Shown: positions 25,626 to 56,383, counted from the first letter of the stretch. The stretch: 64,000 bases of DNA from an uncultured Acidobacteriota bacterium (GCA_963777605.1 CAVZRV010000031.1:448001-512000); one strand, 5' to 3'. The notes: a model not told the origin generated them from the sequence alone. Made by a program: numbers and translations.

Positions 25626-27689
25626 CTATCTTGACGGGGACTCTGGGGCGGACTCGCTCTTGAGCTGAGCGAGCGCGGCACGCACCTGGGGAATCAACTG
25701 GGCATACTGGGCACCCTTGGCCCGCTCGAGAAAGGCTTCCAGATTGCGGATCGCAGCCGGCGTATCTCCGGCCATTTGAGCCAGGATTCCGAGGTTCATG
25801 TACGGCTCAATCAGCTGTGGATCAAGCTCGACGGCTCTCTGAAAGCTTTCCCGGGCCAATTCCGGGCGCTGCCGCTGAATCGCGATCAGGCCACGCAGAT
25901 TGTAGGCCGCGGCATGATCAGGGTTTTGAGTCAGGATTGCCTGCACTCCCAACTCGGCATCGTCAAGCTTGCCAGACTGAATATAGGCATTGACAAGGTT
26001 GCTGAGGTTGTCGAGGTTTCTGGGGTTGATGTCGGCAGACCTCTTTAGAGATTCAATGCCTGCTTCGAGGTGGCCGAGGCGAATCTGAACCTCTCCCATC
26101 TCCGAATAAGTCCGGTCGGTCTCGGCCCCATTCTTGACTGCCTGCTCATAAAGAGCGAGGGCTTGCTTGAAATTCCTGGTTTCCTGGAGGCAAACTCCAA
26201 GATTCTGGTAAACCAGCGGGTTCTGAGGATCCTGTGCGGTCAGCTTCTGCAAAACCGGGACCGCCTTGGAGTAATCACCAGCGTTCATCAGGTGGGTTGC
26301 GTGATCGAGTCCCTTCAGGACTGCTACGCGGTCCTTGGGATCGGGCCCCTCGAGATCGGCTACCAGTTTCCGGGCACTGCTCGAACTGACGTAGCCGAGC
26401 GACTGCAACTCGCGCATGGTCGCCTCGTCGAGGGAACGATAGGGGATCTCACGATCCTGCCCCGGTTCACCGCTCACCCTCCAGACTTCCTTCTGCAGCC
26501 GCTCCGCCTCATCGGCGTGCTGCCCGATGACATTGGTCGTTTCGCTGCTGTCGGTATCGAGATCGTAGAGTTCCGGCTTGGGAGCGAGGATGTACTTCCG
26601 ATCCACAGTCCTCACGCCGTACAACTCGGACCACCGCATCTGGGTTTGCGGGTAAAACGTCTCCATGTACGAGTAATTGATGCGCACCGGCTGACCATCG
26701 CGCAGCAAGGGCATCAGGCTTTCGCCGTCAAGACCGGCCGGAGCCTGGACCCCCGCAAAATCGAGAGCGGTCGGCATCACATCGATGGAGCGGGCCAGCT
26801 GATCCGCCACCACATTCCGTCGGACGCCGGGCCCGGCGATCAGGAGCGGCACCCGAACCGTGGAATCGTACAGAAAGACCCCGTGCGTCTGCTCCCCGTG
26901 GTCCCCCAGGCTTTCACCATGATCGGCCAACGCCACGACAAGAGTCGAATCGGTCAGTCGCTCGGACTCGAGGGCTTCCAGAAGCGCCCCCACCTGGGCG
27001 TCAACGAAGGCGACTTCCCCGGCGTAGAGATCCTTTTCATAGCGAGTCCTGAACTCATGGGGCGGATCGTACGGGAAATGCGGATCGTAGTAGTGCACCC
27101 AGAGGAAGAACCCTTTGCTGCGGTCCCTTCCCCGAAGCCACTCTACAGCCCGTTCCGTGACGGTGTCACCCCGGACCTCGGCCACGACACCGGGAAGCTT
27201 CTCGACGTCGGGATCGCTGGTCATCTTGTCGTCATAGGTCTCAAACCCGCGATTGAGACCATAGCGGTGATGGAGGACCGAGGCAGCGACGAATGCCGCC
27301 GTCTGGAAACCATGCCGGCCCATGACTCCGGCCAGCGTCGGGATTTTCTCATCGAGGATAAATCCGCCCACGTCACGGATCTGGTGCTTCGGCGGGTACA
27401 CTCCCGTCAGAATGGACGCATGGGACGGAGTCGTAAGCGGCACCTGGACAACAGCATGTTCGAACCGGACTCCCTCCGCCGCCAGCCCGTCCAGGTTCGG
27501 CGTTTCGATGTCCTTCTTGCCGTAGCAGCCGAGATAGTCGGCCCGCAGCGTATCCAGGGTGATCAGGAGAACGTTTTTGCCCGCCGTTGAAACGGTTTGC
27601 TCAGCCGGCGCAGGCGATTCCTTCGACGAACAGGCCGCCAGCAACAGAAGGGCAGCAGCAATGGGGAGAAGGGATCGTCGCGACACCAC
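25626..27689 (-). CDS. Sulfatase-like (AlkP superfamily) lipoprotein with C-terminal TPR repeats
   Basis: Lipobox LAAC; NVLLITLDTLRAD, TPNLD, PLTTPSHASILTG, WVHYYDPH, ADHGESLGDHGE and ELYDL, then internal LQSLGY and TPRs. Start uncertain. Confidence 0.88.
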   Translation of the reverse strand: MVSRRSLLPIAAALLLLAACSSKESPAPAEQTVSTAGKNVLLITLDTLRADYLGCYGKKDIETPNLDGLAAEGVRFEHAVVQVPLTTPSHASILTGVYPPKHQIRDVGGFILDEKIPTLAGVMGRHGFQTAAFVAASVLHHRYGLNRGFETYDDKMTSDPDVEKLPGVVAEVRGDTVTERAVEWLRGRDRSKGFFLWVHYYDPHFPYDPPHEFRTRYEKDLYAGEVAFVDAQVGALLEALESERLTDSTLVVALADHGESLGDHGEQTHGVFLYDSTVRVPLLIAGPGVRRNVVADQLARSIDVMPTALDFAGVQAPAGLDGESLMPLLRDGQPVRINYSYMETFYPQTQMRWSELYGVRTVDRKYILAPKPELYDLDTDSSETTNVIGQHADEAERLQKEVWRVSGEPGQDREIPYRSLDEATMRELQSLGYVSSSSARKLVADLEGPDPKDRVAVLKGLDHATHLMNAGDYSKAVPVLQKLTAQDPQNPLVYQNLGVCLQETRNFKQALALYEQAVKNGAETDRTYSEMGEVQIRLGHLEAGIESLKRSADINPRNLDNLSNLVNAYIQSGKLDDAELGVQAILTQNPDHAAAYNLRGLIAIQRQRPELARESFQRAVELDPQLIEPYMNLGILAQMAGDTPAAIRNLEAFLERAKGAQYAQLIPQVRAALAQLKSESAPESPSR

Positions 27690-27712
27690 GGCTAGCTTAG
27701 CACAAGATCCCC

Positions 27713-28240
27713 TCAGACCCACCAGTCGTCGAAGCCGATCATTTTCCAGGCGAGTTTGTCCCGGTTTCCACCCCACCTGGGATGACTGTAAAAGCCCTGC
27801 ATGGTGTGGGACCGGACCATCGAGAAGAAATCGCCCGCCGGAGGGGACGGCCAGAGGTCAGCGGGAAGGTCTCCCCGTTCCATGCGCTGGAGCAGCTGCA
27901 GTTGCTGGTCGAAGTTCAACTTCACGAACGAAGCCTGGAATAGTCTTTCGCTGCTCAAATCGGTCGCGGTCAGTCCCGCCTGGTAAACCGCGACCCATTC
28001 CGGGTGGGCTTCCCGCAGTACCCTCCCAATGAACGTTGCCACACCGAGTTCCCGGGCGCCGGGGAAATCGTCCGCAGGAACGATCTGTTCACAGACGTCT
28101 CCCAAAAGGGTCAACTGGTCCTCTGGGAGCCCCTTCACGGTCCCCTGCAAGGGGGGGACACCACCGGCCAACAGAAACCGGGGCGGCGCCGTCGCCATTG
28201 CCGCCAAAGAAAAAAGGAATTTCCGTCGATCTGCTCTCAT
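27713..28240 (-). CDS. Gluconate-2-dehydrogenase subunit 3 family Tat protein
   Basis: DRRKFL Tat motif; IVPADDFPGA..LGVA.FI and FFSMVRSHTMQGFYSHPRWGGNRDKLAWKMIGF. It is directly downstream of the GMC gene. Confidence 0.9.
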   Translation of the reverse strand: MRADRRKFLFSLAAMATAPPRFLLAGGVPPLQGTVKGLPEDQLTLLGDVCEQIVPADDFPGARELGVATFIGRVLREAHPEWVAVYQAGLTATDLSSERLFQASFVKLNFDQQLQLLQRMERGDLPADLWPSPPAGDFFSMVRSHTMQGFYSHPRWGGNRDKLAWKMIGFDDWWV

Positions 28241-29936: not shown

Positions 29937-30113
29937 CCTGGCAAACCTTTCGCTAGTGAGTCCAGTTGGAACTGGAGCATGAAGGTTCCTGTGCATGCGA
30001 CAGATTTCCGATCGAGGAAATCATCGTCCTGCGCCGCGTGCTTCCCTGTCCCCGACTCCTAAACCAAAAATCAAAACCCGTCAACCGAGAAAAGCGCAAA
30101 TCAAAAATCTCTG

Positions 30114-31847
30114 TCAGGGAGTCACGATTCCAGAGCCCTCTTTGATAGTGACGGACTGGTCTGCCGGGATGTCGAGCAACTGCTCCGCCGATTCCGTCGA
30201 TGGCCAGAGGATCTCGACTTTGTCAACTTTCGCCGCTTTGCCAAGTCCGAAGTGGAGCCGAAGGTCACTCTGGGACATCACGCTCCCTCCGCTCTCGAAC
30301 CTCCTGGGTCTGGACAATGTCACCGGAGGTCACCCGGACCCGGGCCCCGATCGCCGCCCGGTTGCTGCGAGTCCCCACCAGCTTCAACTCGATCCAGTGA
30401 TTGCCCGTCTGAGAATCACACCGCAGCAACGAAGGCCGGTCGTTCATGTTGAGGACGAGAACGTCGACGTCGCCGTCGTTGTCGTAGTCCCCGAATGCAC
30501 AACCACGGCTGGCAAACCTCTCCGTGGCGCCGTCGCCCATTCGGGCCGAAATGTCCTCGAACCGACCGTCACCCAGATTCCGGTAGATCAACCGCGGAGT
30601 CTTCATCGGAACGTCGAGGCCGAAGTCCCTGGCATTGGGATAGACGTGGCCGGTGACATAGAAGATGTCAACCCACCCGTCGTTGTCGATGTCCACGAAA
30701 CCGGCACCCCAGTTGACGTACTGGGTGTTCAGCCCGAGACCCGCCATCACCGCGACGTCACGGAAAGTGCCGTCTCCGTTGTTCTGATAGAGGTTGCAGG
30801 TGTCGTACTGGAAATTGGTCTTGAAGATATCGAGGGCGCCGTCGTGGTTGAAGTCCCCAACCCCGACGCCCATTCCGGCCTGCTCCAAACCGTTCTCGCT
30901 GAAGGCGCAGCCGGCCACCATGCCGACCTCTTCGAAGGTGCCGTCACCCAGGTTCCGGAACAACAGGCTGGCCCGGGAATCAACGGCGACGTAGATGTCA
31001 GGCCACCGGTCGTTGTCAAAATCGGCCGAGACTGCGGTGATCGAATAGGCCGGCCCTGCCGCGAGAATCCCGGACGACTCGGATACGTTCTTGAAGGTTC
31101 CGTCTCCCTGGTTCCGGTAGAGAATGTTCGAGCCGGCGGGCAATCCACGAGGTCCGCACATGACCGGGACGCCCTTCCAGACACAGTCCGGGCTCTCCCC
31201 CGGCTTGGGAACGGTATCGAGGTCGAGTTCAATGTAATTGGCGACAAAAAGATCGAGGTTCCCGTCCCGATCGTAATCGAGCCACGTGCAACCAGAGGCC
31301 CAGCGGTCACGTTCGCCGCGCACGCCGGCCTGGATCGACACATCCTCGAAAGTGCCGTCTCCACGATTCCGGTAGAGCCCGTTTCGTCCCCAGTCGGCGG
31401 TGAACAAGTCATCCCGGCCGTCGTTGTCGAAATCACCGACGCACACACCCGTCTGCCACCCGGTCCTGACCAGTCCGGCCTGACGCGTCACTTCTTCGAA
31501 GCTGCCCTCGTGGTTGTTCCGGTAGAGGTGAGACGTCGGCCGGTTTTCGTCGGTGTACTCCTCGTTCAGGCGAACGCCGTTCGTGAGGTAGATGTCGAGC
31601 CAACCATCGTGGTCGTAGTCCAGAAAGCCGAGACCGCTTCCCTTGGCCTCGATGATATAGGTCTTCTCTTCCACCCCCCCCAGACATTGGGAGCCGTCAC
31701 CCCCGCCTGCTCTGCGACATCGGTGAACTGAACCGGAAATGGATCAACTGAACCTTCGCCGCCGGCAAAAAGCCGACTGCTCGCCCCCGTCCAGAGCGCC
31801 AAAACCGCGAGAATGAGGCCAAACTGTTTGAAAAGACCTTTGCACAT
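30114..31847 (-). CDS. CRTAC1-family protein (FG-GAP plus ASPIC/UnbV); frameshifts near 31680 and 30293
   Basis: The signal peptide and FTDVAEQAGV lie in ORF 31566..31889, the FG-GAP body in 30265..31674, and the SGGSVMSQSDLRLHFGLG...WPS tail in 30114..30323. One break is in a G8 run. Confidence 0.88.
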
Positions 31848-31928
31848 CGGTAAAAACTCTCCACAGTCTAGCAGAAGAGAATTCCACAATTCTGCTAAAC
31901 TGGCTCGAGTTGGTTTCAGTTTTGGTAA

Positions 31929-31989
31929 CTAGTGTCCTGAGTGAGAAATTGGCAAAAGGCACGTGCGAGTTTCTGACTCAGAAAACTAG
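31929..31989. mobile_element. 61-bp MITE-like inverted repeat bounded by CTAG
   Basis: Left end CTAGTGTCCTGAGTGAGAAATT versus reverse complement of right end CTAGTTTTCTGAGTCAGAAACT (18/22 match). Confidence 0.45.
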
Positions 31990-32040
31990 CAGCTTGGCCG
32001 GCGCGTTTGGCCTTTCGAGTGGGAAGCGAAGCCCCGAGTG

Positions 32041-34155
32041 ATGAAACGACGGCTGGTTCGGAGCAGCGGTCGGTGCCTGTTGCTGATCCTGTTCGCATTT
32101 TCCGTGGCGAGTCTGGTTCCCCGGCCCGTGGAAGCCTACATCGGTCCAGGGGCCGGAATTGCCTTTGTTTCATCTTTTCTGGTCATTCTGGTTTCCTTTG
32201 CGCTGGCTATCGTCGCGATGCTTACCTGGCCGTTCCGGTGGCTCTACCAGACGGTCCGCTTCCGCAAAGCTCTGGGTCGAAGTCACGTTCGGCGCTGCAT
32301 CGTCCTCGGGCTCGACGGACAAGACCCGGAACTGACCGACCGCTACATGGCCGAGGGGTTACTGCCCAACTTCGAGCGCCTGCAAAAGGCCGGCTGCTAC
32401 AGGAGGCTTCGAACCACTCTTCCCGCCGAATCCCCGGTTGCCTGGTCCTCTTTTCAGACCGGGTGCAATCCGGGGCGGCATCGAGTTTTCGACTTCCTGG
32501 TACCGAACAGGAAGTCTTACCTTCCAGAACTTTGTTCGGCCAGGGTCGATCCGCCTCCGCGCCACTTCGAGATCGGCCGGTTTCGAATCCCAATCGGGAA
32601 GCCTCGAATCCGATTTGAACGCAAGAGCCAATCGTTCTGGAAAATCCTGGGTGATCACGGAATTTTCAGTACCATCCTTCGGGTCCCGGTCTCCTTTCCT
32701 CCCGAGCGATTCAAGGGACTCTTGTTGTCCGCCATGTCGGTTCCCGACCTGAGAGGCACCCAGGGCACATTCACCTACTTCAGCAGCGACCCCGAGGAGT
32801 GCCGCCGGGTCACGGGCGGCATGGTGGTTCCATTTCAACTCTCGAACGGATCCGCAACGGCTGTCCTGACCGGTCCGCCCAATCCCGTCCTGAAGTCCGA
32901 GGAAGCCCTGAGTCTACCGCTCGCCGTTAAACTCCCCTTGAACGGCCGACCGGCCTCGCTCGAAATCGAGGGGAAACGCTATGACCTGCCCCTGGGTGAC
33001 TACACTCCGTGGATCGATCTCGACTTCAAAACCGGCCTCGGAGCCCGCGTCCGAGGAATTTCGCGGTTCCTGCTCAAGGAGGTGGAGCCCCACGTACGCC
33101 TCTACATGACCCCGATCAATATTTCGCCGAGCAAGCCCGTGCTCCCCGTTTCCCACCCCTGGAGCTACGCCCTCTACCTGGCCAAGACCCAGGGTGAATT
33201 CGCCACCCTCGGTCTCGCCGAGGATACCTGGGCCCTCAACGAGAGGGTTCTCGACGAAGGGGACTTCCTGCGCCAGGCTTACCTGATCCATGAAGAACGG
33301 GAGAAGATGTACTTCGACGCCATCTCCAAGACTGGCCAGGGCCTGGTCGTCTGCGTTTTCGATCTCACCGACCGGTTGCAGCACATGTTCTTCCGTTACC
33401 TCGACCGGAATCATCCGTCGAACCGGGGGAAGGACCAGGAAAAACACCGAGATGCCATCCGGGACCTTTATGTGCGGATGGACGAACTGGTCGGCCGTAC
33501 CCTGGACAAGGTCGACGACGACACGGCGCTGATCGTGATGTCGGATCACGGCTTCAAACCATTTCGACGGGGCGTCAATTTGAACAGCTGGCTCTACCAG
33601 GAGGGGTACCTGGCCCTCAAGGGCGCACCCAGTGGTGCAGACTGGTTCGAAGGCGTTGACTGGGAGCACACTCGAGCCTACGCCGTGGGTCTGGGTGGCA
33701 TCTACTGCAACCTGAAGGGGCGGGAAGCGAAAGGCATCGTGGAGCCGGCAACCGAATATGAGGCCCTCAAACAGGAGATTCGGAAAGGACTCGAGACGCT
33801 GGTCGACCCCCAGGACGGATCGCGCGCGGTGACGCGAGTCTATGACACCGCAGAAGAATACCGGGGACCCTACGCGGCGGAAGGCCCCGACTTGATCGCT
33901 GGATTCAAGCCCGGCTACCGGGCGTCCTGGTCAAACGCGACCGGAGGAGTGACGGCCTCGGTTTTCGAAGACAACCTCAAGAGTTGGAGCGGCGACCACT
34001 GCATGAACCCGGCCGAAGTGCCGGGGATCTTCTTCTCGAATCGGAACGTGAAGGGTGAAGAGGTGGACATCACGGACATCGGTCCTTCGATCCTTGATCT
34101 CTTCGGAGTTCCCGTTCCGGCCTACTGCGATGGGAGACCTCAGTTTCAGCCATGA
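32041..34155 (+). CDS. AlkP-superfamily phosphodiesterase-like protein (COG3379-like) with signal peptide-YIGPG-TM anchor
   Basis: VLGLDG, TTLPAESPVAWSSFQTG.NPGRH.VFDF, DRLQH, MSDHGF, W..TRAYA.GLGG and WSGDH. The N-terminus reads ...PVEA|YIGPGAG, then a TM helix and a basic stretch. Confidence 0.88.
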   Translation: MKRRLVRSSGRCLLLILFAFSVASLVPRPVEAYIGPGAGIAFVSSFLVILVSFALAIVAMLTWPFRWLYQTVRFRKALGRSHVRRCIVLGLDGQDPELTDRYMAEGLLPNFERLQKAGCYRRLRTTLPAESPVAWSSFQTGCNPGRHRVFDFLVPNRKSYLPELCSARVDPPPRHFEIGRFRIPIGKPRIRFERKSQSFWKILGDHGIFSTILRVPVSFPPERFKGLLLSAMSVPDLRGTQGTFTYFSSDPEECRRVTGGMVVPFQLSNGSATAVLTGPPNPVLKSEEALSLPLAVKLPLNGRPASLEIEGKRYDLPLGDYTPWIDLDFKTGLGARVRGISRFLLKEVEPHVRLYMTPINISPSKPVLPVSHPWSYALYLAKTQGEFATLGLAEDTWALNERVLDEGDFLRQAYLIHEEREKMYFDAISKTGQGLVVCVFDLTDRLQHMFFRYLDRNHPSNRGKDQEKHRDAIRDLYVRMDELVGRTLDKVDDDTALIVMSDHGFKPFRRGVNLNSWLYQEGYLALKGAPSGADWFEGVDWEHTRAYAVGLGGIYCNLKGREAKGIVEPATEYEALKQEIRKGLETLVDPQDGSRAVTRVYDTAEEYRGPYAAEGPDLIAGFKPGYRASWSNATGGVTASVFEDNLKSWSGDHCMNPAEVPGIFFSNRNVKGEEVDITDIGPSILDLFGVPVPAYCDGRPQFQP

Positions 34156-36131
34156 GCATCCGGCGGACCCTCACAATTCTCTGCACGATTGCCCTGTTGC
34201 CTGCAGCAGCCTGTTCGAGCGATCAGGCGGGCGGACATCGGGTCATGGTTCTGGGCATTGACGGCATGGACCCCCGCCTCCTGAAGTCCTACCTGGACGA
34301 AGGAGTCATGCCCAATTTTCAGAGGGTAATCGAACGCGGGGCCTTCAAACCGCTCCAGACAACCATGCCGCCCCAAAGCCCGGTAGCCTGGTCGACATTT
34401 ATCACCGGCACGCCACCCGCAAAGCACGGAATCTTCGACTTTCTTCACCGCGACCCCAAGACGATGGTGCCCGAGTTTTCCATGGCCAAGACGGAGGGCT
34501 CGGACTGGAACCTCGACCTCGGTTCCTGGATTATTCCGCTCAGAGGCGCCAAGATCGAACAACTGCGCAAGGGGCGTGCGTTCTGGGAAATCCTGGATGA
34601 CCACGGAATTCCCAGTACGATCTTCCGCATGCCGGTGAACTTTCCGCCTGCGGCCGCCGGAAAGTCTCTTTCCGGAATGGGCACGCCGGACATTCTGGGC
34701 ACGGCCGGGACTTTCTACTTTTTTACGGATGAGTGGTTTCCCGAGGACAATTCCCTTTCCGGAGGACGGATCTTCCCCGTCAACGTGACCGACTACGCGG
34801 TAGACGCCCAACTGGTCGGCCCCCCCAATCCATACCGTCGAGAGGCGGATGCTGAATCGCCCGATAGAGAGATCAATCCCGAGATGCTGGTCGATTTTCA
34901 TGTTGACCTCGACCCGGAGAATGCGCTCGCCAAGATCTCGCTTCAGGACCAGGAGTTCATCCTGAAGCAGGGCGAGTGGAGCGACTGGGTGACCATCCAT
35001 TTCGAGGCGGTTCCCCACCTGGTCGAGGTCGACGCGATCGCCCGCTTCTACCTGCAGGAAGCCGCGCCGGATTTTCGCCTTTACGTAACGCCGATGCAGA
35101 TTGACCCGGCAAACCCGGCCATGCCCATCACCTACCCGGATGATTGGTCCCAGGAGCTCTACCAGGCCCTCGGCCGCTTCTACACCCAGGAACTCCCGGA
35201 AGACACCAAGGCATTCTCGGCCGGAATCTTCAACGGCCACGAGTTCTGGGATCAATCACAGTTTGTTTATCGCGAACAACGCAAGGCCCTCGACTACGCC
35301 CTGGACCACTTCCATGACGGACTGCTCTTCTTCTACATTTCGAGCATCGACCAGGGCTCCCACATGCTCTGGCGCTACAACGATCCGAAACACCCGGCAT
35401 ACGTCTACGACCCGATCCTGTCCCAGGCCCTGCGCACGCTCTACCGGGAAATGGACGAAGCCCTCGGCCGGGTTCTCCAGGCGATCGACGACGACACGAC
35501 CCTCATCGTGATGTCCGACCACGGATTCTGCGCGTTCTACTGGGAAGTCAATCTCAACACCTGGCTCGCAGAGAAAGGTTACGTGAGCCTGGTTCCCAAC
35601 GGGCAACGGCATGGGGGACCCATGTTTTCCGACGTGGACTGGACCAGGACCAGGGCTTACGCCCTCGGCCTGAACGGCGTCTACGTCAACTTGAAGGGAC
35701 GGGAGGAGCACGGGATCGTATCTCCCGGAGCCGAGTTCAACAGCGTCCTGGAACAACTGGAATCCGACCTGCTCGACTTGAAGGACCCTCGCAACGGTCG
35801 CAATGCCGTGAGCTACGTTTTGAGGGCGGGCAGGGATTACCCGATCGACCCCGATGGAAAAGCCCCGGACATGGTCGTGGGCTATGCGCGGGGGTACCGG
35901 AGTTCCTGGCAGAGTCCACTGGGGGAGTTTCCCGACCAGGTCTTCCTCGACAACCTGGATCCCTGGAGCGGGGATCACAGCGTGGATTCCCGGGAAGTCC
36001 CTGGAATCCTGGTCACCAACCGGCAGATCTCCCTCGACGAGCCGGCTCTGTACGACCTGACAGTGACGATCCTCAACGAGTTCGGCATCTCCAAACCACC
36101 CGAGATGGTCGGAAAGGATTGTCTTCAGTAG
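34152..36131 (+). CDS. AlkP-superfamily phosphodiesterase-like lipoprotein (COG3379-like), paralog of the upstream gene
   Basis: ATGA overlap with the previous stop; lipobox-like AAAC; VLGIDG, TTMPPQSPVAWSTFITG, DQGSH, MSDHGF, WTRTRAYALGLNG and WSGDH. Confidence 0.88.
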   Translation: MSIRRTLTILCTIALLPAAACSSDQAGGHRVMVLGIDGMDPRLLKSYLDEGVMPNFQRVIERGAFKPLQTTMPPQSPVAWSTFITGTPPAKHGIFDFLHRDPKTMVPEFSMAKTEGSDWNLDLGSWIIPLRGAKIEQLRKGRAFWEILDDHGIPSTIFRMPVNFPPAAAGKSLSGMGTPDILGTAGTFYFFTDEWFPEDNSLSGGRIFPVNVTDYAVDAQLVGPPNPYRREADAESPDREINPEMLVDFHVDLDPENALAKISLQDQEFILKQGEWSDWVTIHFEAVPHLVEVDAIARFYLQEAAPDFRLYVTPMQIDPANPAMPITYPDDWSQELYQALGRFYTQELPEDTKAFSAGIFNGHEFWDQSQFVYREQRKALDYALDHFHDGLLFFYISSIDQGSHMLWRYNDPKHPAYVYDPILSQALRTLYREMDEALGRVLQAIDDDTTLIVMSDHGFCAFYWEVNLNTWLAEKGYVSLVPNGQRHGGPMFSDVDWTRTRAYALGLNGVYVNLKGREEHGIVSPGAEFNSVLEQLESDLLDLKDPRNGRNAVSYVLRAGRDYPIDPDGKAPDMVVGYARGYRSSWQSPLGEFPDQVFLDNLDPWSGDHSVDSREVPGILVTNRQISLDEPALYDLTVTILNEFGISKPPEMVGKDCLQ

Positions 36132-36151
36132 CAGGAGGGATCGAAGCGACG

Positions 36152-36344
36152 ATGTTCAAGCCCAAAGTCAAGATTGAAAAGGCCCTCTACGAGAAGGTGA
36201 AAAAGTATTCTCAGCTCGCCGGTTACTCCTCAGTCGACGAGTTCATCACCCATGCCCTTGAAAAGGAAGTTGGCCAAGCTCGAAGATGCCGATTCGGAAG
36301 AGGAGATCAGGAACCGCCTGAAAGGACTGGGCTACATCTCCTGA
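36152..36344 (+). CDS. Small ribbon-helix-helix-like protein with C-terminal EEEIRNRLKGLGYIS motif; frameshift near 36271
   Basis: AGGAGG RBS; MFKPKVKIEKALYEKVKKYSQLAGYSSVDEFITHALEKE, then after removing one extra base (L/V)AKLEDADSEEEIRNRLKGLGYIS-stop (TGA 36342-36344). Confidence 0.7.
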
Positions 36345-36430
36345 GATGGCTTCCCGGGTGCAACCCGTTGGGGCCCGATCGAGGGGACCGAAGCCCCTGA
36401 AGTGGGACCAAGCGGAGTTTGCGAGGATAC

Positions 36431-37261
36431 GTGAACAACATCATCAACCTGGTCAACCGGTCACTTGAAGCCGCATTCGCGGTCCTGCTGGCACCCTTCA
36501 GCGGTGTCGGCCCTCTGATTCCGGTTCTGGTGATTTCGTTCCTGTCGGGACTCCTGATGTTGTGGGCCTTCGGCAAGTGGTCCGACCAGGAGAGAATTCG
36601 AGCGGCGAAGGACCGCATCCGGGGCCATCTCCTGGGAGTACGCCTTTACCAGCACGATGTCAGGGTCGTCCTTCGCCTTCAGGCGTCTATCCTCCGCCAG
36701 GTTGCTACCTATTTCCGACTCTCCCTTAGCCCGATCGTGGTCCTGATCGTGCCGCTTCTCCTGATACTTATCCAGCTCAACCTCTTCTTCTCGAACCGGC
36801 CCCTCCAGATCGGCCGTCCCACGGTACTGACCGTCAGGACCGACGACCGCTTCCGTCCCGGAACCGACATCGAGCTGCGCGCCTCCGATGGAATTACGGT
36901 CGAGACGGCGCCTGTCCACTCGAGCACGCGGCACGAGGTTTCCTGGCGGGTCCGAGCGGATCGTGCCGGCCGCTTTGCTGCCGTGATCGAAGCTGACGGC
37001 CGGTCACTTGAAAAATCGATCGTGGCCGGAAAACGATGGGCCGCAGTTTCTCCTACTCGAACCAGAAACTGGTTTGACCAGCTCTTTTTCTCGGGAGAAC
37101 CGCCCCTGCCCGGTTCGACGGGGATCACCGCGATTGAGCTCGCCTACCCGGCCCAGTCGATCGACTTGTTTGGATGGAAGACCGACTGGCTGGTTCTTTT
37201 CCTGGTTGTCTCAATTGTGACGGCATTTGCCATGAAACGGTTCTTCGGAATCGAGATTTAG
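36431..37261 (+). CDS. Membrane protein resembling DUF106/EMC3-TMCO1 (Oxa1 superfamily), with an inserted beta-rich domain
   Basis: Amphipathic N-helix, TM1 (PLIPVLVISFLSGLLMLWAF), charged coiled-coil (SDQERIRAAKDRIR...LRLQASILR), TM2 (SLSPIVVLIVPLLLILIQL), beta-rich insert, TM3 (WLVLFLVVSIVTAFAMKRFFGI). Confidence 0.55.
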   Translation: MNNIINLVNRSLEAAFAVLLAPFSGVGPLIPVLVISFLSGLLMLWAFGKWSDQERIRAAKDRIRGHLLGVRLYQHDVRVVLRLQASILRQVATYFRLSLSPIVVLIVPLLLILIQLNLFFSNRPLQIGRPTVLTVRTDDRFRPGTDIELRASDGITVETAPVHSSTRHEVSWRVRADRAGRFAAVIEADGRSLEKSIVAGKRWAAVSPTRTRNWFDQLFFSGEPPLPGSTGITAIELAYPAQSIDLFGWKTDWLVLFLVVSIVTAFAMKRFFGIEI

Positions 37262-37268
37262 GATTGCT

Positions 37269-37880
37269 GTGTTGAGAAATTGGTTTGGTACCGTCCTGCG
37301 CTGGAACCGGGCACCAGTCGTGATTGTCTCAGGCCTGCCTCGATCGGGCACCTCTCTGGTCATGCAGATGCTGAAAGCGGGGGGACTGGAACCGTTCACC
37401 GACACCGTGCGGCAAGCCGATGAGGACAATCCCAAAGGTTACTTAGAGCACGAACGGGTCAAAGAACTCAAAAGTGGCGCCGACAAGGCCTGGGTCAAAG
37501 ATGCCGGAGGCAAGGTGATCAAGGTCATCTCGCACCTGCTTCCCGAACTTCCGTCCGGTCTCCGTTACCAGGTGATTTTCCTGCGGAGAAATCTGGGCGA
37601 AATCATTGCATCGCAGAACAGGATGCTGGAACGTCGCGGCGAGCCGCTGGCGCAAGATGATGGGAGAACCAGGGAACTGTTCGAGACCCACCTGGCAAAG
37701 ATATTCAACTGGCTGCATTGCCAGCCGAATTTCCAGGTTGTAGAAATAGACTATGCGGAAATCATCGCGTCTCCGAAAGGTGCCGCCGAACGGATTCGGG
37801 AATTTCTGGAACGGGACCTGGACCTGGATCGAATGGCCGACGCGGTGGATCCCGCTCTCTATCGAAACAGGAGGACCTAG
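37269..37880 (+). CDS. PAPS-dependent sulfotransferase family protein
   Basis: VIVSGLPRSGTSLVMQML 5'-PSB loop, DEDNPKGYLE, VIFLRR..EIIASQ 3'-PB-like motif and C-terminal VDPALYRNR; no signal peptide. Confidence 0.88.
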   Translation: MLRNWFGTVLRWNRAPVVIVSGLPRSGTSLVMQMLKAGGLEPFTDTVRQADEDNPKGYLEHERVKELKSGADKAWVKDAGGKVIKVISHLLPELPSGLRYQVIFLRRNLGEIIASQNRMLERRGEPLAQDDGRTRELFETHLAKIFNWLHCQPNFQVVEIDYAEIIASPKGAAERIREFLERDLDLDRMADAVDPALYRNRRT

Positions 37881-37986
37881 TCGTTCACTGTCCCAGGCAT
37901 CAGTCGGCTGGAACACTCCGGCCGACGCCGCTGGTGACGGAACGGTTCGAGGAGAATAGAGGGTTACTTTTTGCGGAGTGAAACAC

Positions 37987-39711
37987 ATGAATTACAGTAG
38001 CGTCTGGAAGGCAGCCGGAGCCCTGCTCGTCATCGGGTTCGGCCTTTCCTGCTCGAATCAACCCGAATCAAGAGCCTATGAAAACCGCTGGGTCCGGATC
38101 CAGACGTCACTGGCAGACGACCAGGAACTGGGCCGTGTGACCGGCCTCGTGGAGAGAGCAGCCGCCCACGGCGTCAACGGGATCGCCCTTTCCGCCGGGC
38201 TCGACACTCTGGACTTGAAGCCTCCGGAATACTTTGAAAGGCTCCGGGCACTTCGCGAGGTCTGCCAGGAAAAAGGTGTCGATATCGTGCCCTCCTTCTG
38301 GTCTGCCGGATACGGGGGCGGGATCCTGGCCCACAACAGGAATCTGGCCGCCGGCCTTCCGGTCAGGGATGCTCTCTTCGTCACCCGGGGAGGAGTCGCT
38401 CAACTGGTGCCCGACCCGGACGCCCGCATCGAGAACGGCGGCTTTGAACAAGTCGAGAACGGTCTGCTGGTCGGATTCACGCAGCCCGGCTCCCTTGGGG
38501 AGGTGATCTCCCAGGACCGGGACGTAGCCCACGAAGGCCAGGCCTCTCTTCGATTCGAACGATTCAGCGAGTTTCCCCGGGAAGCGGGGCGCATCCACCA
38601 GCGTGTGCAAGTCAAACCCTACCGCCATTACCGCGTTTCGGGATGGGTCCGGACCGAAGGTCTCGATGCAGATGATCCTTTCGGCTCGGGGAACTTCCAG
38701 CTCGAAGTGACCGGGGGAGATGAAGCCCGAAGGCTCCAGTTCGAGAACCCCCGCTATGCACAGGACGGCGAGTGGCACCAGTTCTCGGTGGCTTTCAACA
38801 GCTGGGGCTACGACTGGGTTGAGCTCTCCCCGGTGGTCACCGATACCAAAGTGGGGCGCCTCTGGCTGGATGGGCTGAAGATCGAAGAAATCGCTCTCGT
38901 CAACGTACTCCGGCGCCCGGGAACTCCTCTCACGGTAAAAGGGGAGCAGTCCGGGATAGCTTACGAGGAAGGCAGGGACTTCGAACCGGTCGAGGATCCC
39001 CAGTTCGACTTTCGAGTGGCCCACGACGGTCCGGGCATCCGGCTCACCCGGGACAGCCGAATTCATGACGGAGAGCGGCTGCTGGTCAGTTTCTATCATC
39101 CTGCACTCATTTATCGCAGCCAGACTCCCATCTGCATGTCGGAACCGGAGACCTACGCCATATGGGAAACCCAGGCCGGGCTCGTTCACAAGGCATTGGA
39201 GCCCCGCAAGTACTTCCTCAACATGGATGAAATCCGGGTGGGGGGCTCCTGCGAGGCCTGCCGGTCACGGGGAATGACGAATGCCAAGATCCTGGGAGAC
39301 TGCATTACCCGCCAACACGATCTCCTCAAGACGGTCAACCCGGACGCGGAGATCTTCATCTGGTCGGACATGCTGGACCCGAACCACAACGCGCGGCCGG
39401 ACCGAAAATTCTACTACCTTGCCGAACAGAACTTCGTCGATTCCTGGAAGTACGTCCCCAGGGACCTGGGAATCGTTTGCTGGTATTACGACATCCGGGA
39501 GCGGAGCCTGGCCCATTTTTCCAATCTGGGCTTTCGGACGATGGCGGGTGCCTACTATGATGCAGATAACCTGGACAATCCAAAGGGATGGTTGAACGCA
39601 CTGGACAGGACACCGGGTGCCTGCGGGATTATGTACACCACCTGGCTCAACAAATATGACTTGATGGAAGAGTTCGGGGACCTGGTTTCCGGCAAAAGGA
39701 GCACGCAGTGA
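37987..39711 (+). CDS. Lipoprotein with CBM4/9-like insert and GH20-like TIM barrel
   Basis: Lipobox LSC; IENGGFE...YRVSGWVRTE...LWLDGLKIEE carbohydrate-binding module; YFLNMDEIR dyad and IFIWSDML.P.HN. Confidence 0.6.
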   Translation: MNYSSVWKAAGALLVIGFGLSCSNQPESRAYENRWVRIQTSLADDQELGRVTGLVERAAAHGVNGIALSAGLDTLDLKPPEYFERLRALREVCQEKGVDIVPSFWSAGYGGGILAHNRNLAAGLPVRDALFVTRGGVAQLVPDPDARIENGGFEQVENGLLVGFTQPGSLGEVISQDRDVAHEGQASLRFERFSEFPREAGRIHQRVQVKPYRHYRVSGWVRTEGLDADDPFGSGNFQLEVTGGDEARRLQFENPRYAQDGEWHQFSVAFNSWGYDWVELSPVVTDTKVGRLWLDGLKIEEIALVNVLRRPGTPLTVKGEQSGIAYEEGRDFEPVEDPQFDFRVAHDGPGIRLTRDSRIHDGERLLVSFYHPALIYRSQTPICMSEPETYAIWETQAGLVHKALEPRKYFLNMDEIRVGGSCEACRSRGMTNAKILGDCITRQHDLLKTVNPDAEIFIWSDMLDPNHNARPDRKFYYLAEQNFVDSWKYVPRDLGIVCWYYDIRERSLAHFSNLGFRTMAGAYYDADNLDNPKGWLNALDRTPGACGIMYTTWLNKYDLMEEFGDLVSGKRSTQ

Positions 39712-42700: not shown

Positions 42701-42942
42701 TTCTGGGCCGACTGGAATCGGAAGCGCACCTGCTGATTCAAGGAGAGTCAAAGAATTACCTCCGAATGGGCGAAAGGCGGCAGGAGGCCTTCGGCCACCT
42801 CTTCCTTTCCAAGGTCTACGAGGCGACCGGCAAGTCCGGCGAAGCGGAAAAGGAACTGGCCGCCGCCCGCGACCTCGTCCGGGACATCCAGCGGCAGGCT
42901 CTAATGAACGCCCAGATCGTCTTCGCCCAGGCAAGCCAGTAG
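39708..42942 (+). CDS. DUF5107-domain plus TPR protein; frameshift near 42530
   Basis: VYPYP, LENDFIKVLVLPEIGGRL, IKPALVGMTGAWISGGIEWNFP..HRP and GKKFWTWG, followed by TPRs. ORFs 39708..42671 and 42301..42942 join at CGAGGGATTT. Confidence 0.88.
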
Positions 42943-42949
42943 ACATTTG

Positions 42950-43460
42950 CGAACTACGAGCTACGAATTACGATTTCTTTGAGGTGCGGGAGCGAAAGAT
43001 TCCGCTTTGGTCCACCTCCGAGCGCGCGTGGATTTGGGGTTCCGAGGTTCCGGGTTCCGGGGGTTGAGGTTCCGGGTTTCGAGGTTCCGGGGGTTGAGCC
43101 CCGCTTGACGCGGGACTCCGGTGCCGCTTCACGAATCCGCCTCACCTGGGTCCTCGGGCACCACTCCGAACCGAGTCCCGCCCGCGCCGAAGCGGAAGCG
43201 GAAATCGAGAAATACGAACCCGAACCTCAAAACCGAAATGCGAGCTGCAAAATCCGGCCACCACCAAGACCAGCCCCGTGCAGGGACGGCATTGGAGCCC
43301 AGAAACATGAAACCGAAATGCGTGTTGCGAAATCTGGCTCTCGCCACCGGACCAGCCCCGTCCAGGGGCGGCATCGAAGTAGCCCAGGATGAAGCGAAGC
43401 GGAATCCTGGGTCCTCGGCAAACCACCCCACCGAGTCCCGCCACGCGGGACGGCATGACC
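42950..43460. repeat. Intergenic repeat cluster: heptamer tandems and REP-like palindromes
   Basis: (CTACGAR)n near 42950, a degenerate REP GTGCGGGAGCGAAAGATTCCGCTTT at 42984, (GGTTCCG)-like tandems at 43036-43098, and the palindromes AGCCCCGTCCAGGGGC, CCCAGGAT...ATCCTGGG and TCCCGCCACGCGGGA. Confidence 0.65.
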
Positions 43461-48750: not shown

Positions 48751-48850
48751 CACTGCCCCTTTCTGGTTCCAATTCCAAACGTCAAATCACAGGATTCGCT
48801 CACCCGGACCACCAGGATGACAGCACAGCCATTCCATACCCGATAACTCC

Positions 48851-55800: not shown

Positions 55801-56383
55801 GGCCGCCGTTGATCGAACCGGCGAAGCTTCCGCCCTGGGTTCCGGGCATGGCCCGGAAAATGAAGTCCTGTAACTGGCGGGTCCCGTCACCGACCAGGAT
55901 CGGCCAGGTATGGACCTCTTTCAAGTTGGCGCCAATACCGATCTCCGCGGTCGAGGTTTCCAGCAGCGGCCCGGTGCTCGACACCGTGACCGACTCGCTG
56001 ACTTCACCGACCTGGAGTATCAGGTCAATCGACACGGTCTGGGCCAGACCCACCGTGACGTTCTCCGCAACAGCGGTCTTGAACCCGGGCATCGCCGCGC
56101 TGATCTGATAGGTGCCCGGTGACAGGAAAGCCAGCCGAAAGAAACCGCTCTCGGTCGTCACCGCAGTGGTCCTGACTCCGGTTTCGGTCTCGGTGCCAAT
56201 CACCTCCGCACCCGGAATCACTGCACCCGTGGGATCCTTGACGATCCCGTTAATTGTGCCGCGTCCGCTCTGCCCCAACAGGGGTACTGCCAAAAGAAAT
56301 AACAGTACACAGGGCAGAAGGACCGACACGAGAAACTTGGAACGCTTACTCGTCATTCGATTCCTCCAACGTTTACTCCTCAT
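52830..56383 (-). CDS. Oar-like TonB-dependent receptor with N-terminal carboxypeptidase-regulatory-like domain; about four frameshifts
   Basis: GTINGIVKDPTGAVIPGAEV, VGEVSESVTV, DAVSEFKLQT, KSGTNEIHG, GGPIIKDKTHF, YTQDDWK...TLNAGIRWD, FAPRVGFAW and C-terminal GPRNIQGGLRISF. Breaks lie near 54935, 54210, 53570 and 53203. An alternative start is 56356. Confidence 0.9.

What the first reader, a model, noticed from the sequence alone, without database searches (positions are those of the whole stretch)
32041..37880. Candidate undescribed envelope sulfation system: two AlkP paralogs, RHH-LGY protein, DUF106/Oxa1-like membrane protein and sulfotransferase
Seen: five co-oriented, closely spaced genes (ATGA overlap, then gaps of 20, 86 and 7 nt), none of them a glycoside hydrolase despite the surrounding region. 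Established: GLPRSGTS-type enzymes are PAPS-dependent sulfotransferases, and AlkP-superfamily members form covalent Ser/Thr intermediates and can act as transferases as well as hydrolases. Inference: the operon could relay an activated sulfate (or phospho) group from the cytoplasm to an envelope acceptor through an inward-facing and an outward-facing AlkP enzyme, helped by a dedicated membrane protein. I know of no characterised pathway with this gene set.
Basis: partly seen in the sequence, partly recalled or inferred. Interest (0 to 1): 0.85.

Follow-up and report, generated by a model that had tools for sequence, protein, structure and literature searches.

The report
Membrane-straddling sulfation-linked gene cassette
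Five neighbouring genes form a widespread, unstudied bacterial module that puts two phosphatase-type enzymes on opposite faces of the inner membrane beside an archaeal-type membrane insertase relative, a tiny tailed protein and a sulfate-transferring enzyme, and it probably decorates the cell envelope.

Summary

- **Family calls hold.** There are two PF01663 (NPP-type) paralogues with every catalytic residue kept. One is predicted to face inward and one to be exported. There is also a DUF106/Oxa1-type membrane protein (profile hit to MJ0480, E 6.8e-8) and a PAPS-type sulfotransferase.
- **Core conservation.** g1-g2-g3-g4 keeps its order in 67 of 80 loci from several phyla.
- **Sulfotransferase link.** It lies beside the core in 59 of 80 loci, in four arrangements, and is present in 35 of 35 related genomes that carry the core.
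- **Sulfate-activation link.** PAPS synthase and CysQ-like genes abut the cassette in subsets of loci. The g3 tail recurs on neighbouring sulfatase-fold lipoproteins.

The "undescribed envelope sulfation system" reading is partly supported. A sulfate relay through the phosphatase-type enzymes is untested and not the likeliest chemistry. I favour phosphodiester transfer of a sulfated head group across the membrane, which is inferred only. I found no description in print. This scan has met the same cassette before on other DNA.

The parts
32041..34155 (+). g1: 704-aa NPP-type AlkP-superfamily enzyme. It has a cleavable-looking signal peptide, a YIGPGAG motif, one TM helix and a basic stretch, so the catalytic domain is predicted to be cytoplasmic.
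   Evidence: PF01663, E 2.1e-27. A signal peptide plus Y[IVLM]GPGAG plus TM is present in 54 of 55 homologues. D92, S131, D444, H448, D502, H503, D652 and H653 are invariant or nearly so in 55 homologues. The topology is inferred from the positive-inside rule.
34152..36131 (+). g2: 659-aa NPP-type paralogue with a lipoprotein-like leader (LPAAAC), predicted to be exported and membrane-tethered. It carries a roughly 230-residue beta-rich insertion in the NPP core.
   Evidence: PF01663, E 3e-33. 45 of 63 homologues have a Cys in the leader and the rest have a hydrophobic leader. The catalytic residues are invariant in 63 homologues. The model has pLDDT 87.3. The best fold matches are Xanthomonas NPP, ENPP1 and PhnA.
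36152..36344 (+). g3: small RHH-like protein with the conserved C-terminal tail ...EEEIRNRLKGLGYIS. In this assembly it is interrupted by a one-base insertion within 36269-36272.
   Evidence: The two frames are seen. The g3 genes found in 19 of the 20 relatives' loci are intact (63-65 aa); the alignment of twelve of them has 76% mean column identity. RHH Pfam hits lie below the cut-offs. Sources and the Atlas name the family CopG/RHH.
36431..37261 (+). g4: 276-aa membrane protein of the DUF106/Oxa1 superfamily. It has a three-TM core, a cytoplasmic helical hairpin, and an Ig-like domain inserted between TM2 and TM3 that is predicted to be periplasmic.
   Evidence: The window protein has no Pfam hit. 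7 of 39 relatives hit PF01956 weakly. The family profile against MJ0480 (5c8j) gives E 6.8e-8. The model has pLDDT 90.7. VIA-align gives Z 12.6 to 7tut_8 and Z 8.3 to YidC 3wo7. Foldseek matches only Ig-like domains.
37269..37880 (+). g5: 203-aa soluble PAPS-type sulfotransferase (GLPRSGTS loop, RRN...S motif, conserved C-terminal LYRNR).
   Evidence: PF13469, E 2.1e-12, and PF00685, E 3.5e-8. It aligns to SULT1C2 over residues 18-191. The C-termini of 42 homologues are shown.
25626..27776 (-). Possible accessory (association not shown): a sulfatase-fold (PF00884) lipoprotein with TPRs. It has a Thr at the nucleophile position and an internal copy of the g3-type motif (MRELQSLGYVSS).
   Evidence: Only the motif resemblance and the proximity (4.3 kb upstream, opposite strand) link it to the cassette.

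Best explanation
The cassette encodes a machine that straddles the inner membrane and modifies an envelope component with a sulfated group.

Shown by computation:
- An NPP-type enzyme (g1) is tethered to the cytoplasmic face.
- Its paralogue (g2) is exported and tethered to the periplasmic face.
- A bacterial DUF106/Oxa1-type membrane protein (g4) carries a conserved periplasmic Ig-like domain.
- A 63-aa RHH-like protein (g3) ends in a tail that is also found on neighbouring exported sulfatase-fold enzymes.
- A soluble PAPS-type sulfotransferase (g5) always co-occurs with the core in the related genomes searched.

Inferred mechanism:
1. g5 sulfates a small alcohol or a lipid head group in the cytoplasm, where PAPS exists.
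2. g1 does its family's native chemistry, phosphodiester transfer through a phospho-Ser intermediate, to place or process that group on a membrane lipid.
3. g4 lets the anionic head group cross the bilayer through its hydrophilic groove, and/or inserts and holds g1, whose N-terminus looks like a YidC-type 'procoat' substrate.
4. g2, and where present the tailed sulfatase-fold lipoproteins, transfer the phospho-linked sulfated group to a periplasmic or outer acceptor. This would resemble how EptA, LtaS or OpgB use phospholipid head groups (a recalled analogy).
5. g3's tail is a docking or oligomerisation tag. Whether g3 also binds DNA is open.

In this window g3 is frameshifted, most likely an assembly error.
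For: - Families and catalytic competence.
- Opposite topologies.
- g4 as DUF106/Oxa1. Its most conserved residues (W172, R173, K195, E223, W253) lie in the Ig-like insert.
- Order g1-g2-g3-g4: 67 of 80 loci; 10 more are cut by contig ends.
- All five genes in the window's order: 13 of 20 loci from relatives.
- Sulfotransferase next to the core in 59 of 80 loci, in four arrangements: 25 downstream on the same strand, 24 upstream and divergent, 9 upstream on the same strand, 1 downstream on the opposite strand.
- Sulfotransferase present elsewhere in genomes where it is not adjacent (G049, G020).
- Phyletic pattern: 35 of 35 genomes with g4 have the sulfotransferase, against 3 of 26 without g4 (both tallies include the unpublished genome G018).
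- Neighbouring sulfate-activation genes: Sat-CysC in 10 of 80 loci and a CysQ-like gene in 13 of 80.
- Shared tail: it sits at the C-terminus of 16 of 16 neighbouring PF00884 lipoproteins, which have Thr at the nucleophile position and no CxPxR motif.
- g3/g4 overlap: the g3 and g4 matches overlap or abut in several loci (L065, L079, L082, L089, L101).
- Scramblase precedent: the abstract of PMC11997395 (search listing) calls YidC an insertase and lipid scramblase.
Against: - No acceptor, lipid carrier, glycosyltransferase or acyltransferase is conserved with the cassette.
- 10 of 80 loci with a full +/-7 kb view have no adjacent sulfotransferase.
- One genome (G004, a single contig, 85% complete) has the sulfotransferase without a detectable g4.
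- APS kinase is found in 56 of 61 relatives regardless of the cassette, so it does not discriminate. In this genome it is unlinked.
- No physical contact between any two of the proteins has been shown.
- The flipping, transfer and docking steps are all inference.
- The tail-like ends of most Sat-CysC proteins may be an ordinary feature of APS kinases. Only L058 has a clear appended g3-like tail.
Confidence: 0.4

Rival explanations
1. The AlkP paralogues themselves carry activated sulfate as a covalent sulfo-Ser or phosphosulfate intermediate, from PAPS on the inside to an acceptor outside, with g4 helping the passage.
For: - AP-superfamily proteins can act as sulfotransferases. The sulfatase-like Agl30 and Agl31 of Halobacterium salinarum sulfate an N-glycan, shown by deletions and by expression in Haloferax (PMC11980604; abstract and sections 17 and 23 read).
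- PAPS synthase genes abut the cassette in 10 of 80 loci.
- The two paralogues sit on opposite faces of the membrane.
Against: - g1 and g2 are NPP-type (PF01663), not sulfatase-type (PF00884). They have the invariant two-metal site and Ser nucleophile of phosphoryl transfer, and their nearest folds are NPP, ENPP1 and PhnA.
- A canonical PAPS sulfotransferase co-occurs in 35 of 35 genomes, which makes a second sulfuryl-transfer catalyst unnecessary.
- A protein-bound sulfate cannot cross the membrane between two separate enzymes without a carrier, and none is evident.
Confidence: 0.08
2. A membrane-lipid remodelling or phosphate-salvage module. g1 and g2 cleave phospholipid head groups on the two leaflets (as the NPP relatives NPP6, NPP7 and autotaxin act on lipids; recalled). 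g4 scrambles lipids, and g5 makes a sulfated anionic lipid that replaces phospholipid.
For: - Two-sided placement of active phosphodiesterases.
- An Oxa1-type protein is present.
- PPK2 and sulfate-assimilation genes neighbour the cassette in 5 loci each.
Against: - No Pho-type regulator, phosphate transporter or lipid-synthesis gene is conserved beside the cassette.
- The hypothesis does not explain the tailed periplasmic sulfatase-fold lipoproteins.
- It also leaves the strongly conserved Ig-like domain of g4 unexplained.
Confidence: 0.15
3. A looser association. g4 is only the dedicated insertase of g1, g3 is an ordinary RHH autoregulator, and g1/g2 are plain nucleotide phosphodiesterases (for instance clearing PAPS, APS, PAP or other nucleotides on both sides). 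The sulfotransferase then acts on an unrelated soluble substrate.
For: - The g1 N-terminus (signal peptide, 7-residue loop, TM helix, basic stretch) resembles small YidC substrates (recalled).
- g3 has the sequence pattern of DNA-binding RHH proteins.
- The nearest solved relatives of g2 are nucleotide pyrophosphatases.
Against: - g3 is far more conserved (76% mean column identity across phyla) than g4 (42-51%) or than a typical regulator.
- No shared operator-like word was found upstream of g1 in 51-53 loci beyond what shuffles or close relatives give.
- The g3 tail recurs on exported enzymes.
- The most conserved residues of g4 are periplasmic, not in the groove.
- The sulfotransferase tracks the core closely.
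Confidence: 0.2

Closest known systems
NPP branch of the alkaline-phosphatase superfamily (Xanthomonas NPP 2gsn/7mw8, ENPP1, phosphonoacetate hydrolase PhnA 3szy/3t02)
   Same: g1 and g2 match PF01663. The metal ligands and the nucleophile position are kept. The g2 model superposes on these structures (Foldseek E 6.5e-11 to 1e-9).
   Different: - Sequence relation is remote (profile E 2.5e-4 at best).
- The nucleophile is Ser rather than Thr.
- A beta-rich insertion of about 230 residues interrupts the core.
- One paralogue is predicted to be cytoplasmic behind a procoat-like anchor.
- The two paralogues always occur as a pair with g3 and g4.
MJ0480/Ylp1 (archaeal DUF106, PDB 5c8j) and its eukaryotic relatives TMCO1, EMC3 and Get1; more distantly bacterial YidC
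   Same: - The g4 family profile hits MJ0480 at E 6.8e-8 over TM1, the hairpin and TM2, and weakly over TM3.
- The model has a three-TM core with a cytoplasmic helical hairpin.
- The best structural match is chain 8 of the multipass-translocon entry 7tut (Z 12.6, 134 residues, rmsd 3.2). YidC 3wo7 gives Z 8.3.
- That chain 8 is TMCO1 is my recollection, not a tool result.
   Different: - g4 is bacterial, whereas passages of Anghel et al. 2017 (PMC5868721) describe DUF106 as archaeal and eukaryotic.
- It carries an Ig-like domain between TM2 and TM3 that holds the family's invariant residues.
- It is encoded inside an enzyme operon.
- The window protein does not reach any Pfam threshold.
Agl30/Agl31 of Halobacterium salinarum (AP-superfamily sulfotransferases of N-glycan sulfation)
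   Same: These are AP-superfamily enzymes, one membrane-associated and one soluble, tied to sulfation of a lipid-linked glycan (PMC11980604; abstract and sections 17 and 23 read).
   Different: They are sulfatase-like (PF00884-type), not NPP-type. No DUF106 partner, RHH protein or canonical PAPS sulfotransferase is described with them. They are archaeal. Membership was not tested by sequence here.
Periplasmic AP-superfamily head-group transferases (EptA, LtaS, OpgB; recalled)
   Same: They offer an analogy for the proposed outer-face step: a Thr/Ser-nucleophile enzyme that moves a phospho-alcohol from a membrane lipid to an envelope acceptor. The tailed PF00884 lipoproteins beside the cassette have Thr at the nucleophile position.
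   Different: Those enzymes have their own polytopic membrane domains and need no cytoplasmic paralogue. No homology beyond the superfamily level was tested here.
Bacterial PAPS-dependent sulfotransferase systems (NodH, Stf0, RaxST/RaxX; recalled)
   Same: g5 has the PAPS-type fold signature. Sat-CysC and CysQ-like genes lie nearby in some loci.
   Different: None of those systems is known to me to include paired NPP-type enzymes, a DUF106 protein or a tailed RHH protein. The searches found no paper describing this gene set.

Membership tests
NPP-type alkaline-phosphatase superfamily (PF01663): g1 and g2 | Match to the family profile above the curated cut-off | tested here: met
   g1 scores 97.1 bits and g2 scores 116.3 bits against a cut-off of 23.
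NPP-type alkaline-phosphatase superfamily (PF01663): g1 and g2 | Two-metal site ligands (Asp, Asp/His, Asp-His, His) and a Ser/Thr nucleophile | tested here: met
   D92/S131/D444/H448/D502/H503/D652/H653 in g1 and D37/S76/D400/H404/D456/H457/D608/H609 in g2 are kept in 53-55 of 55 and 60-63 of 63 homologues. The nucleophile aligns to the PhnA nucleophile position. The assignment of roles is by recalled NPP motifs.
NPP-type alkaline-phosphatase superfamily (PF01663): g1 and g2 | NPP core fold | tested here: met
   The g2 model (pLDDT 87.3) matches Xanthomonas NPP, ENPP1 and PhnA at Foldseek probability 1.00. g1 was not modelled.
NPP-type alkaline-phosphatase superfamily (PF01663): g1 and g2 | Phosphodiesterase or pyrophosphatase activity | not testable with these tools
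   An enzyme assay is needed.
DUF106 / Oxa1 superfamily: g4 | Sequence homology to a bona fide member | tested here: met
   The profile of 39 family members against MJ0480 (5c8j) gives E 6.8e-8.
DUF106 / Oxa1 superfamily: g4 | Pfam PF01956 (EMC3_TMCO1) at its curated threshold | tested here: inconclusive
   The window protein has no hit. 7 of 39 relatives hit PF01956, best E 4.6e-4; the call did not show bit scores or the curated cut-off for these.
DUF106 / Oxa1 superfamily: g4 | Three-TM core with a cytoplasmic helical hairpin between TM1 and TM2 | tested here: met
   The model has helices 29-50, 53-72/77-120 and 253-267. VIA-align gives Z 12.6 to 7tut_8 and Z 8.3 to YidC. Cytoplasmic placement of the hairpin is inferred from its basic residues.
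DUF106 / Oxa1 superfamily: g4 | Insertase (or scramblase) activity | not testable with these tools
   Reconstitution or genetics is needed.
PAPS-dependent sulfotransferase: g5 | Family profile above the cut-off | tested here: met
   PF13469 scores 48.2 bits (cut-off 27) and PF00685 scores 33.6 bits (cut-off 22).
PAPS-dependent sulfotransferase: g5 | 5'-phosphosulfate loop and 3'-phosphate motif | tested here: met
   GLPRSGTS aligns to the PKAGTT loop of SULT1C2, and RRN...S aligns to RNPKD..VS. The motif names are recalled.
PAPS-dependent sulfotransferase: g5 | Sulfuryl transfer from PAPS to a defined acceptor | not testable with these tools
   An assay is needed. The acceptor is unknown.
Ribbon-helix-helix (CopG/Arc/MetJ) DNA-binding proteins: g3 | Match to an RHH profile above the cut-off | tested here: inconclusive
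   The best hits lie below the cut-offs: RHH_1 at 14.7 bits against 20.5, and FitA-like_RHH at 16.8 bits against 27. Sources and the Atlas label the family CopG/RHH.
Ribbon-helix-helix (CopG/Arc/MetJ) DNA-binding proteins: g3 | A cognate operator near the regulated promoter | tested here: inconclusive
   No word is shared by more than 9 of 51 upstream regions. Words of 6-7 bases occur no more often than in shuffles. The promoter may lie elsewhere.
Agl30/Agl31-type AP-superfamily sulfotransferases | Sulfatase-like (PF00884-type) catalytic domain | tested here: not met
   g1 and g2 hit PF00884 only below its cut-off (18.5 and 20.2 bits against 25) and belong to PF01663. The neighbouring tailed lipoproteins are PF00884 but were not compared with Agl30/31.

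The most novel reading that the evidence does not exclude
Bacteria of several phyla have an extracytoplasmic sulfation pathway that solves the problem that there is no PAPS in the periplasm. A sulfated, phosphodiester-linked group is made at the inner face (g5 plus g1). It is passed across the bilayer by a bacterial member of the archaeal/eukaryotic DUF106 insertase family acting as a head-group conduit (g4). It is then handed to envelope acceptors by exported AP-superfamily transferases (g2 and the tailed sulfatase-fold lipoproteins). A shared C-terminal peptide assembles the parts.
Probability: 0.2. Interest if true: 0.9.

Novelty: categorically new. Interest (0 to 1): 0.75.

Why it matters
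- **Spread.** A probe for g3 found relatives at 362 places in one-genome-per-species contigs. The g4 family has 3,419 cluster representatives at E <= 0.001. Record titles span Acidobacteriota, Gemmatimonadota, Candidatus Eisenbacteria and Candidatus Entotheonella.
- **No description found.** I found no paper describing the cassette.
- **A new setting for DUF106.** It places a DUF106/Oxa1-type protein, which the passages I read describe as archaeal and eukaryotic, inside a bacterial enzyme operon. That gives a genetic handle on what such proteins do beyond general protein insertion.
- **A possible new route.** If the sulfation reading is right, it would be a new way to modify the bacterial envelope in abundant soil and marine phyla.
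- **A testable tag.** The shared tail peptide would be a protein-assembly tag that can be tested directly.

Every part belongs to a known superfamily. What is new is the assembly, and its function is not yet shown.

Tried and rejected
- **Complex prediction.** g4 with two copies of g3 (homologues from L015, with alignments A4 and A2) gave no verdict. It says nothing for or against binding. Only one job was allowed, so g3-g1, tail-g2 and g4-g2 were not tried.
- **Reads over the frameshift.** The run search found only small shares (0.18 and 0.14). The two contigs laid cover 36287-36449 and 36507-36657, not the site at 36269-36272. This gives no information on whether the frameshift is real.
- **Locus search with the g4 alignment.** I used the g3 alignment instead.
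- **APS kinase as a discriminator.** It is found in 56 of 61 relatives irrespective of the cassette, so it is uninformative.
- **Operator search upstream of g1.** Nothing beyond close-relative sharing was found.
- **Promoter and terminator scan of 31500-43200.** Results were at or below chance.
- **Genome-wide scan for the L..LGY[IVL] motif.** There were 12 hits in G000, and only the sulfatase-TPR protein is a plausible analogue. Among C-terminal tails only g3 has the canonical form, and the Sat-CysC on contig C7 ends in a degenerate ...LRGKGFLANG. I therefore dropped the idea that the tag is common in this genome.
- **Tyrosine sulfation of the g3 tail by g5.** I considered and set this aside. 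The same tail sits on exported lipoproteins, and the residues next to its Tyr are basic rather than acidic. This is reasoning, not a test.
- **Foldseek on the g4 model.** It matched only Ig-like domains. The membrane core was recognised only by the wide VIA-align search.
- **Atlas search with g3.** It returned only its own unnamed 'CopG-like' clusters.
- **Earlier-notes look-ups.** The search by place and the search by words returned nothing.


Full report
**1. What is in the window**

The window is contig C31:448001-512000 of a 6.7-Mb, 53-contig genome. The closest named relatives of its proteins are Acidobacteriota. Five + strand genes lie at the stated place: g1 32041-34155, g2 34152-36131, g3 36152-36344, g4 36431-37261 and g5 37269-37880. 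The ATGA overlap is confirmed, and the gaps are 20, 86 and 7 nt. The surroundings are rich in glycoside hydrolases (GH2, GH32, GH123) and also hold a sulfatase-TPR gene.

One correction is needed. g3 is not a single open frame here.
- The RHH half and the tail half lie in adjacent frames.
- Of the 20 loci from relatives, the 19 in which a g3 was found all have one uninterrupted frame (63-65 aa from the MF start); L031 has none. In the 80 genome-contig loci both halves matched in every locus; I checked their frame explicitly only in L013 and in the twelve genes aligned.
- Against these homologues the window has one extra base within 36269-36272.
- Public contigs did not cover the site.
- A TonB-receptor-like gene at 52830-56410 (-) is broken into at least four frame pieces whose Pfam matches follow one another along the profile (positions 2-197, 201-424, 432-615 and 725-838).
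- I therefore think an indel-prone assembly is the likelier cause (about 3 in 4, my estimate).

**2. What the proteins are**

*g1 and g2.* Both match PF01663 far above its cut-off. In alignments of 55 g1-type and 63 g2-type homologues, the Asp, Ser, Asp...His, Asp-His and Asp-His positions that correspond to the NPP two-metal site and nucleophile are invariant or nearly so. The g2 model (pLDDT 87.3) superposes on Xanthomonas NPP, ENPP1 and phosphonoacetate hydrolase, but it carries a beta-rich insertion between about residues 98 and 330. By sequence the family is only remotely related to any solved structure.

- g1 begins with a signal peptide ending in an AxA-like site, then Y[IVLM]GPGAG, one hydrophobic helix and a run of Arg/Lys. 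This pattern is present in 54 of 55 homologues. By the positive-inside rule the catalytic domain is cytoplasmic.
- g2 begins with a signal peptide. 45 of 63 homologues have a Cys in it, mostly in a lipobox-like context by eye. The others have a hydrophobic leader. The protein is therefore exported and tethered.

*g4.* The window protein has no Pfam hit, but several lines place it in the DUF106/Oxa1 superfamily.
- 7 of 39 relatives touch PF01956 weakly.
- The family profile finds the archaeal DUF106 protein MJ0480 at E 6.8e-8 as the only PDB hit.
- The model (pLDDT 90.7) has a three-helix membrane core with a long helical hairpin after the first core helix.
- Its best match among 48,161 chains is chain 8 of the multipass-translocon entry 7tut (Z 12.6, 134 residues, rmsd 3.2). 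The next row is at Z 8.7, and YidC 3wo7 is at Z 8.3.
- Between the second and third core helices sits an Ig-like sandwich. It holds most of the family's invariant residues (W172, R173, K195, E223, W253).

*g5.* It is a small soluble sulfotransferase (PF13469, PF00685). Its loops align to the PAPS-binding motifs of SULT1C2.

*g3.* It has the beta-helix-helix pattern of RHH proteins. Its Pfam hits lie under the cut-offs, though sources name it CopG/RHH. It ends in an acidic linker and ...IKKRLKGLGYIS. It is unusually conserved, at 76% mean column identity.

**3. Is it a unit?**

*Relatives of the same order (20 loci).*
- 13 loci hold all five genes in the window's order.
- 2 loci (L016, L025) hold g1-g4 only.
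- L020 has only a partial g1 match.
- L022 is rearranged.
- L029 and L030 are divergent second copies with g4 about 3 kb away.
- L031 shows g4 alone near a contig end.

*One-genome-per-species collection.* A probe for g3 matched 521 stretches. Of these, 362 encode a relative and the best 80 were kept.
- 67 of the 80 loci have g1-g2-g3-g4 in order.
- 10 are cut upstream by a contig end.
- 3 lack a g2 match. L101 and L102 have a full view; L108 is cut.

*The sulfotransferase.*
- It is adjacent in 59 of 80 loci: 25 downstream on the same strand, 24 upstream and divergent, 9 upstream on the same strand, and 1 downstream on the opposite strand.
- 11 loci are too short to tell.
- 10 loci with a full +/-7 kb view lack it.
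- In two genomes without an adjacent copy it lies elsewhere: G049, about 19 kb away on the same contig, and G020, on another contig.

*Phyletic pattern (61 related genomes).*
- g4 was found in 35 genomes, and all 35 also have the sulfotransferase.
- Of the 26 genomes without g4, G004 and G044 have a strong match and G025 a weak one.
- In G004 nothing else of the cassette lies near the sulfotransferase.
- These tallies include the unpublished genome G018, and relatives are not independent samples.

The constant unit is therefore g1-g4, and g5 is a mobile but faithful companion.

**4. Link to sulfate activation, and the shared tail**

I clustered the flanking ORFs of the 80 loci and ran Pfam on one or two representatives of each cluster. 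The recurrent neighbours were:

| Neighbour | Loci (of 80) |
|---|---|
| PF00884 protein of about 800 aa | 16 |
| Inositol_P (CysQ-like) protein | 13 |
| ATP-sulfurylase/APS-kinase fusion | 10 |
| PPK2 | 5 |
| PAPS reductase | 5 |
| Sulfite reductase | 5 |

In this genome the APS kinase is on contig C7. APS kinase is nearly universal in the order (56 of 61), so only the adjacency is informative.

- All 16 of 16 neighbouring PF00884 proteins end in ...EEL[EQ]RL[RK]SLGY[IVL][QKR].
- They have lipoprotein-type leaders and no CxPxR motif, and a Thr at the nucleophile position.
- One CysC (L058) and one g2 (L058) carry an appended g3-like tail.
- Six of the 11 Sat-CysC ORFs end ...LGY[IM] within the last few residues (L057, L058, L060, L069, L074, L077) and two end ...LGFIGA (L081, L094). 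This may be an ordinary APS-kinase feature.
- The tail thus occurs on cytoplasmic and on exported proteins.

**5. How it probably works**

*Shown by computation:* two catalytically intact phosphodiesterase-type enzymes on opposite faces of the membrane; a DUF106/Oxa1-type membrane protein with a conserved outward-facing domain; a tailed small protein; and a tight genetic tie to a PAPS sulfotransferase.

*Inferred:*
- Sulfation happens in the cytoplasm (g5).
- g1 and g2 perform phosphodiester transfer, not sulfuryl transfer.
- g4 passes a lipid-borne anionic head group, and/or inserts and holds g1.
- The outer-face enzymes deliver the group to an envelope acceptor.
- The tail is a docking or oligomerisation tag.

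YidC is called an insertase and lipid scramblase in an abstract I saw only in a search listing (PMC11997395). I give this general picture 0.4 and the specific head-group-carrier version 0.2.

Those enzymes are sulfatase-like, however, and here a canonical sulfotransferase is present. I give it 0.08.

*Other rivals.* A lipid-remodelling reading gets 0.15, and a loose association (a dedicated insertase, an ordinary regulator and plain nucleotide phosphodiesterases) gets 0.2.

**6. Comparison with what is known, and novelty**

Each part belongs to a known superfamily (see the membership table). The assembly does not match any system I know or could find.
- Searches for sulfotransferase gene clusters in these phyla found no description.
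- Searches for the gene combination found none.
- Searches on DUF106 with bacteria found none.
- A search on every paper holding 'DUF106...' (40 papers, judged by title) found none.
- Passages of Anghel et al. 2017 call DUF106 'archaeal and eukaryotic'.
- Passages of the SecY/YidC preprint treat archaeal and bacterial YidC as separate lineages.
- I did not read supplements.

This scan has met the same cassette on other DNA (e1-767690, e1-1887745, e1-3521395, e1-1441968, e1-1260050, e1-3104585, e1-976794). Those AI notes agree with what I tested here but are not independent evidence.

**7. Verdict**

Interest is 0.75.

Noticed in passing
window 52830-56410 (-): A TonB-dependent-receptor-like outer-membrane protein gene (CarboxypepD_reg plus OMP_b-brl_4) is split into at least four reading-frame pieces. 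Their Pfam matches run consecutively along the profile (positions 2-197, 201-424, 432-615 and 725-838). It is either a pseudogene or a sign of indel errors in the assembly.
   Followed up: partly
window 25626-27776 (-): A sulfatase-fold (PF00884) lipoprotein with C-terminal TPRs has Thr at the nucleophile position (no CxPxR). Between the two domains it carries an internal copy of the g3-type motif (MRELQSLGYVSS).
   Followed up: partly
L099:4991-7192 (Candidatus Entotheonella record): g2 and g3 are joined in one open frame with no stop between them, while the sister record L098 has a stop after g2. This could be a natural fusion, read-through or a sequencing error. A fusion would put the RHH part outside the cytoplasm.
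   Followed up: partly
L087 and L111 (Eisenbacteria-type g2 homologues): The exported AlkP paralogue carries an LGY-type motif (EEDRAALASLGYIE) just after its lipobox Cys, at the N-terminal rather than the C-terminal end.
   Followed up: no
window 29995-31731 (+): The 578-aa protein directly upstream of g1 has no Pfam or NCBIfam hit. Weak relatives (24-38% identity) lie near the cassette in L021, L030, L031, L093 and L096.
   Followed up: no
window 46970-48753 (-): A GH123 catalytic-domain ORF (348 aa, profile positions 96-324 only) is followed by a 187-aa ORF without any family. It may be another split gene.
   Followed up: no
window 37880 region and g5 homologues in 42 loci: The sulfotransferase family ends in a conserved ...VDPxLYRNR motif near the C-terminus. 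Its role is unknown.
   Followed up: no
L029, L030 (genomes G034, G040): Some genomes of one family carry a second, divergent copy of the cassette. Its g3 tail ends ...LGYLE, and its g4 lies about 3 kb from g1-g3.
   Followed up: no
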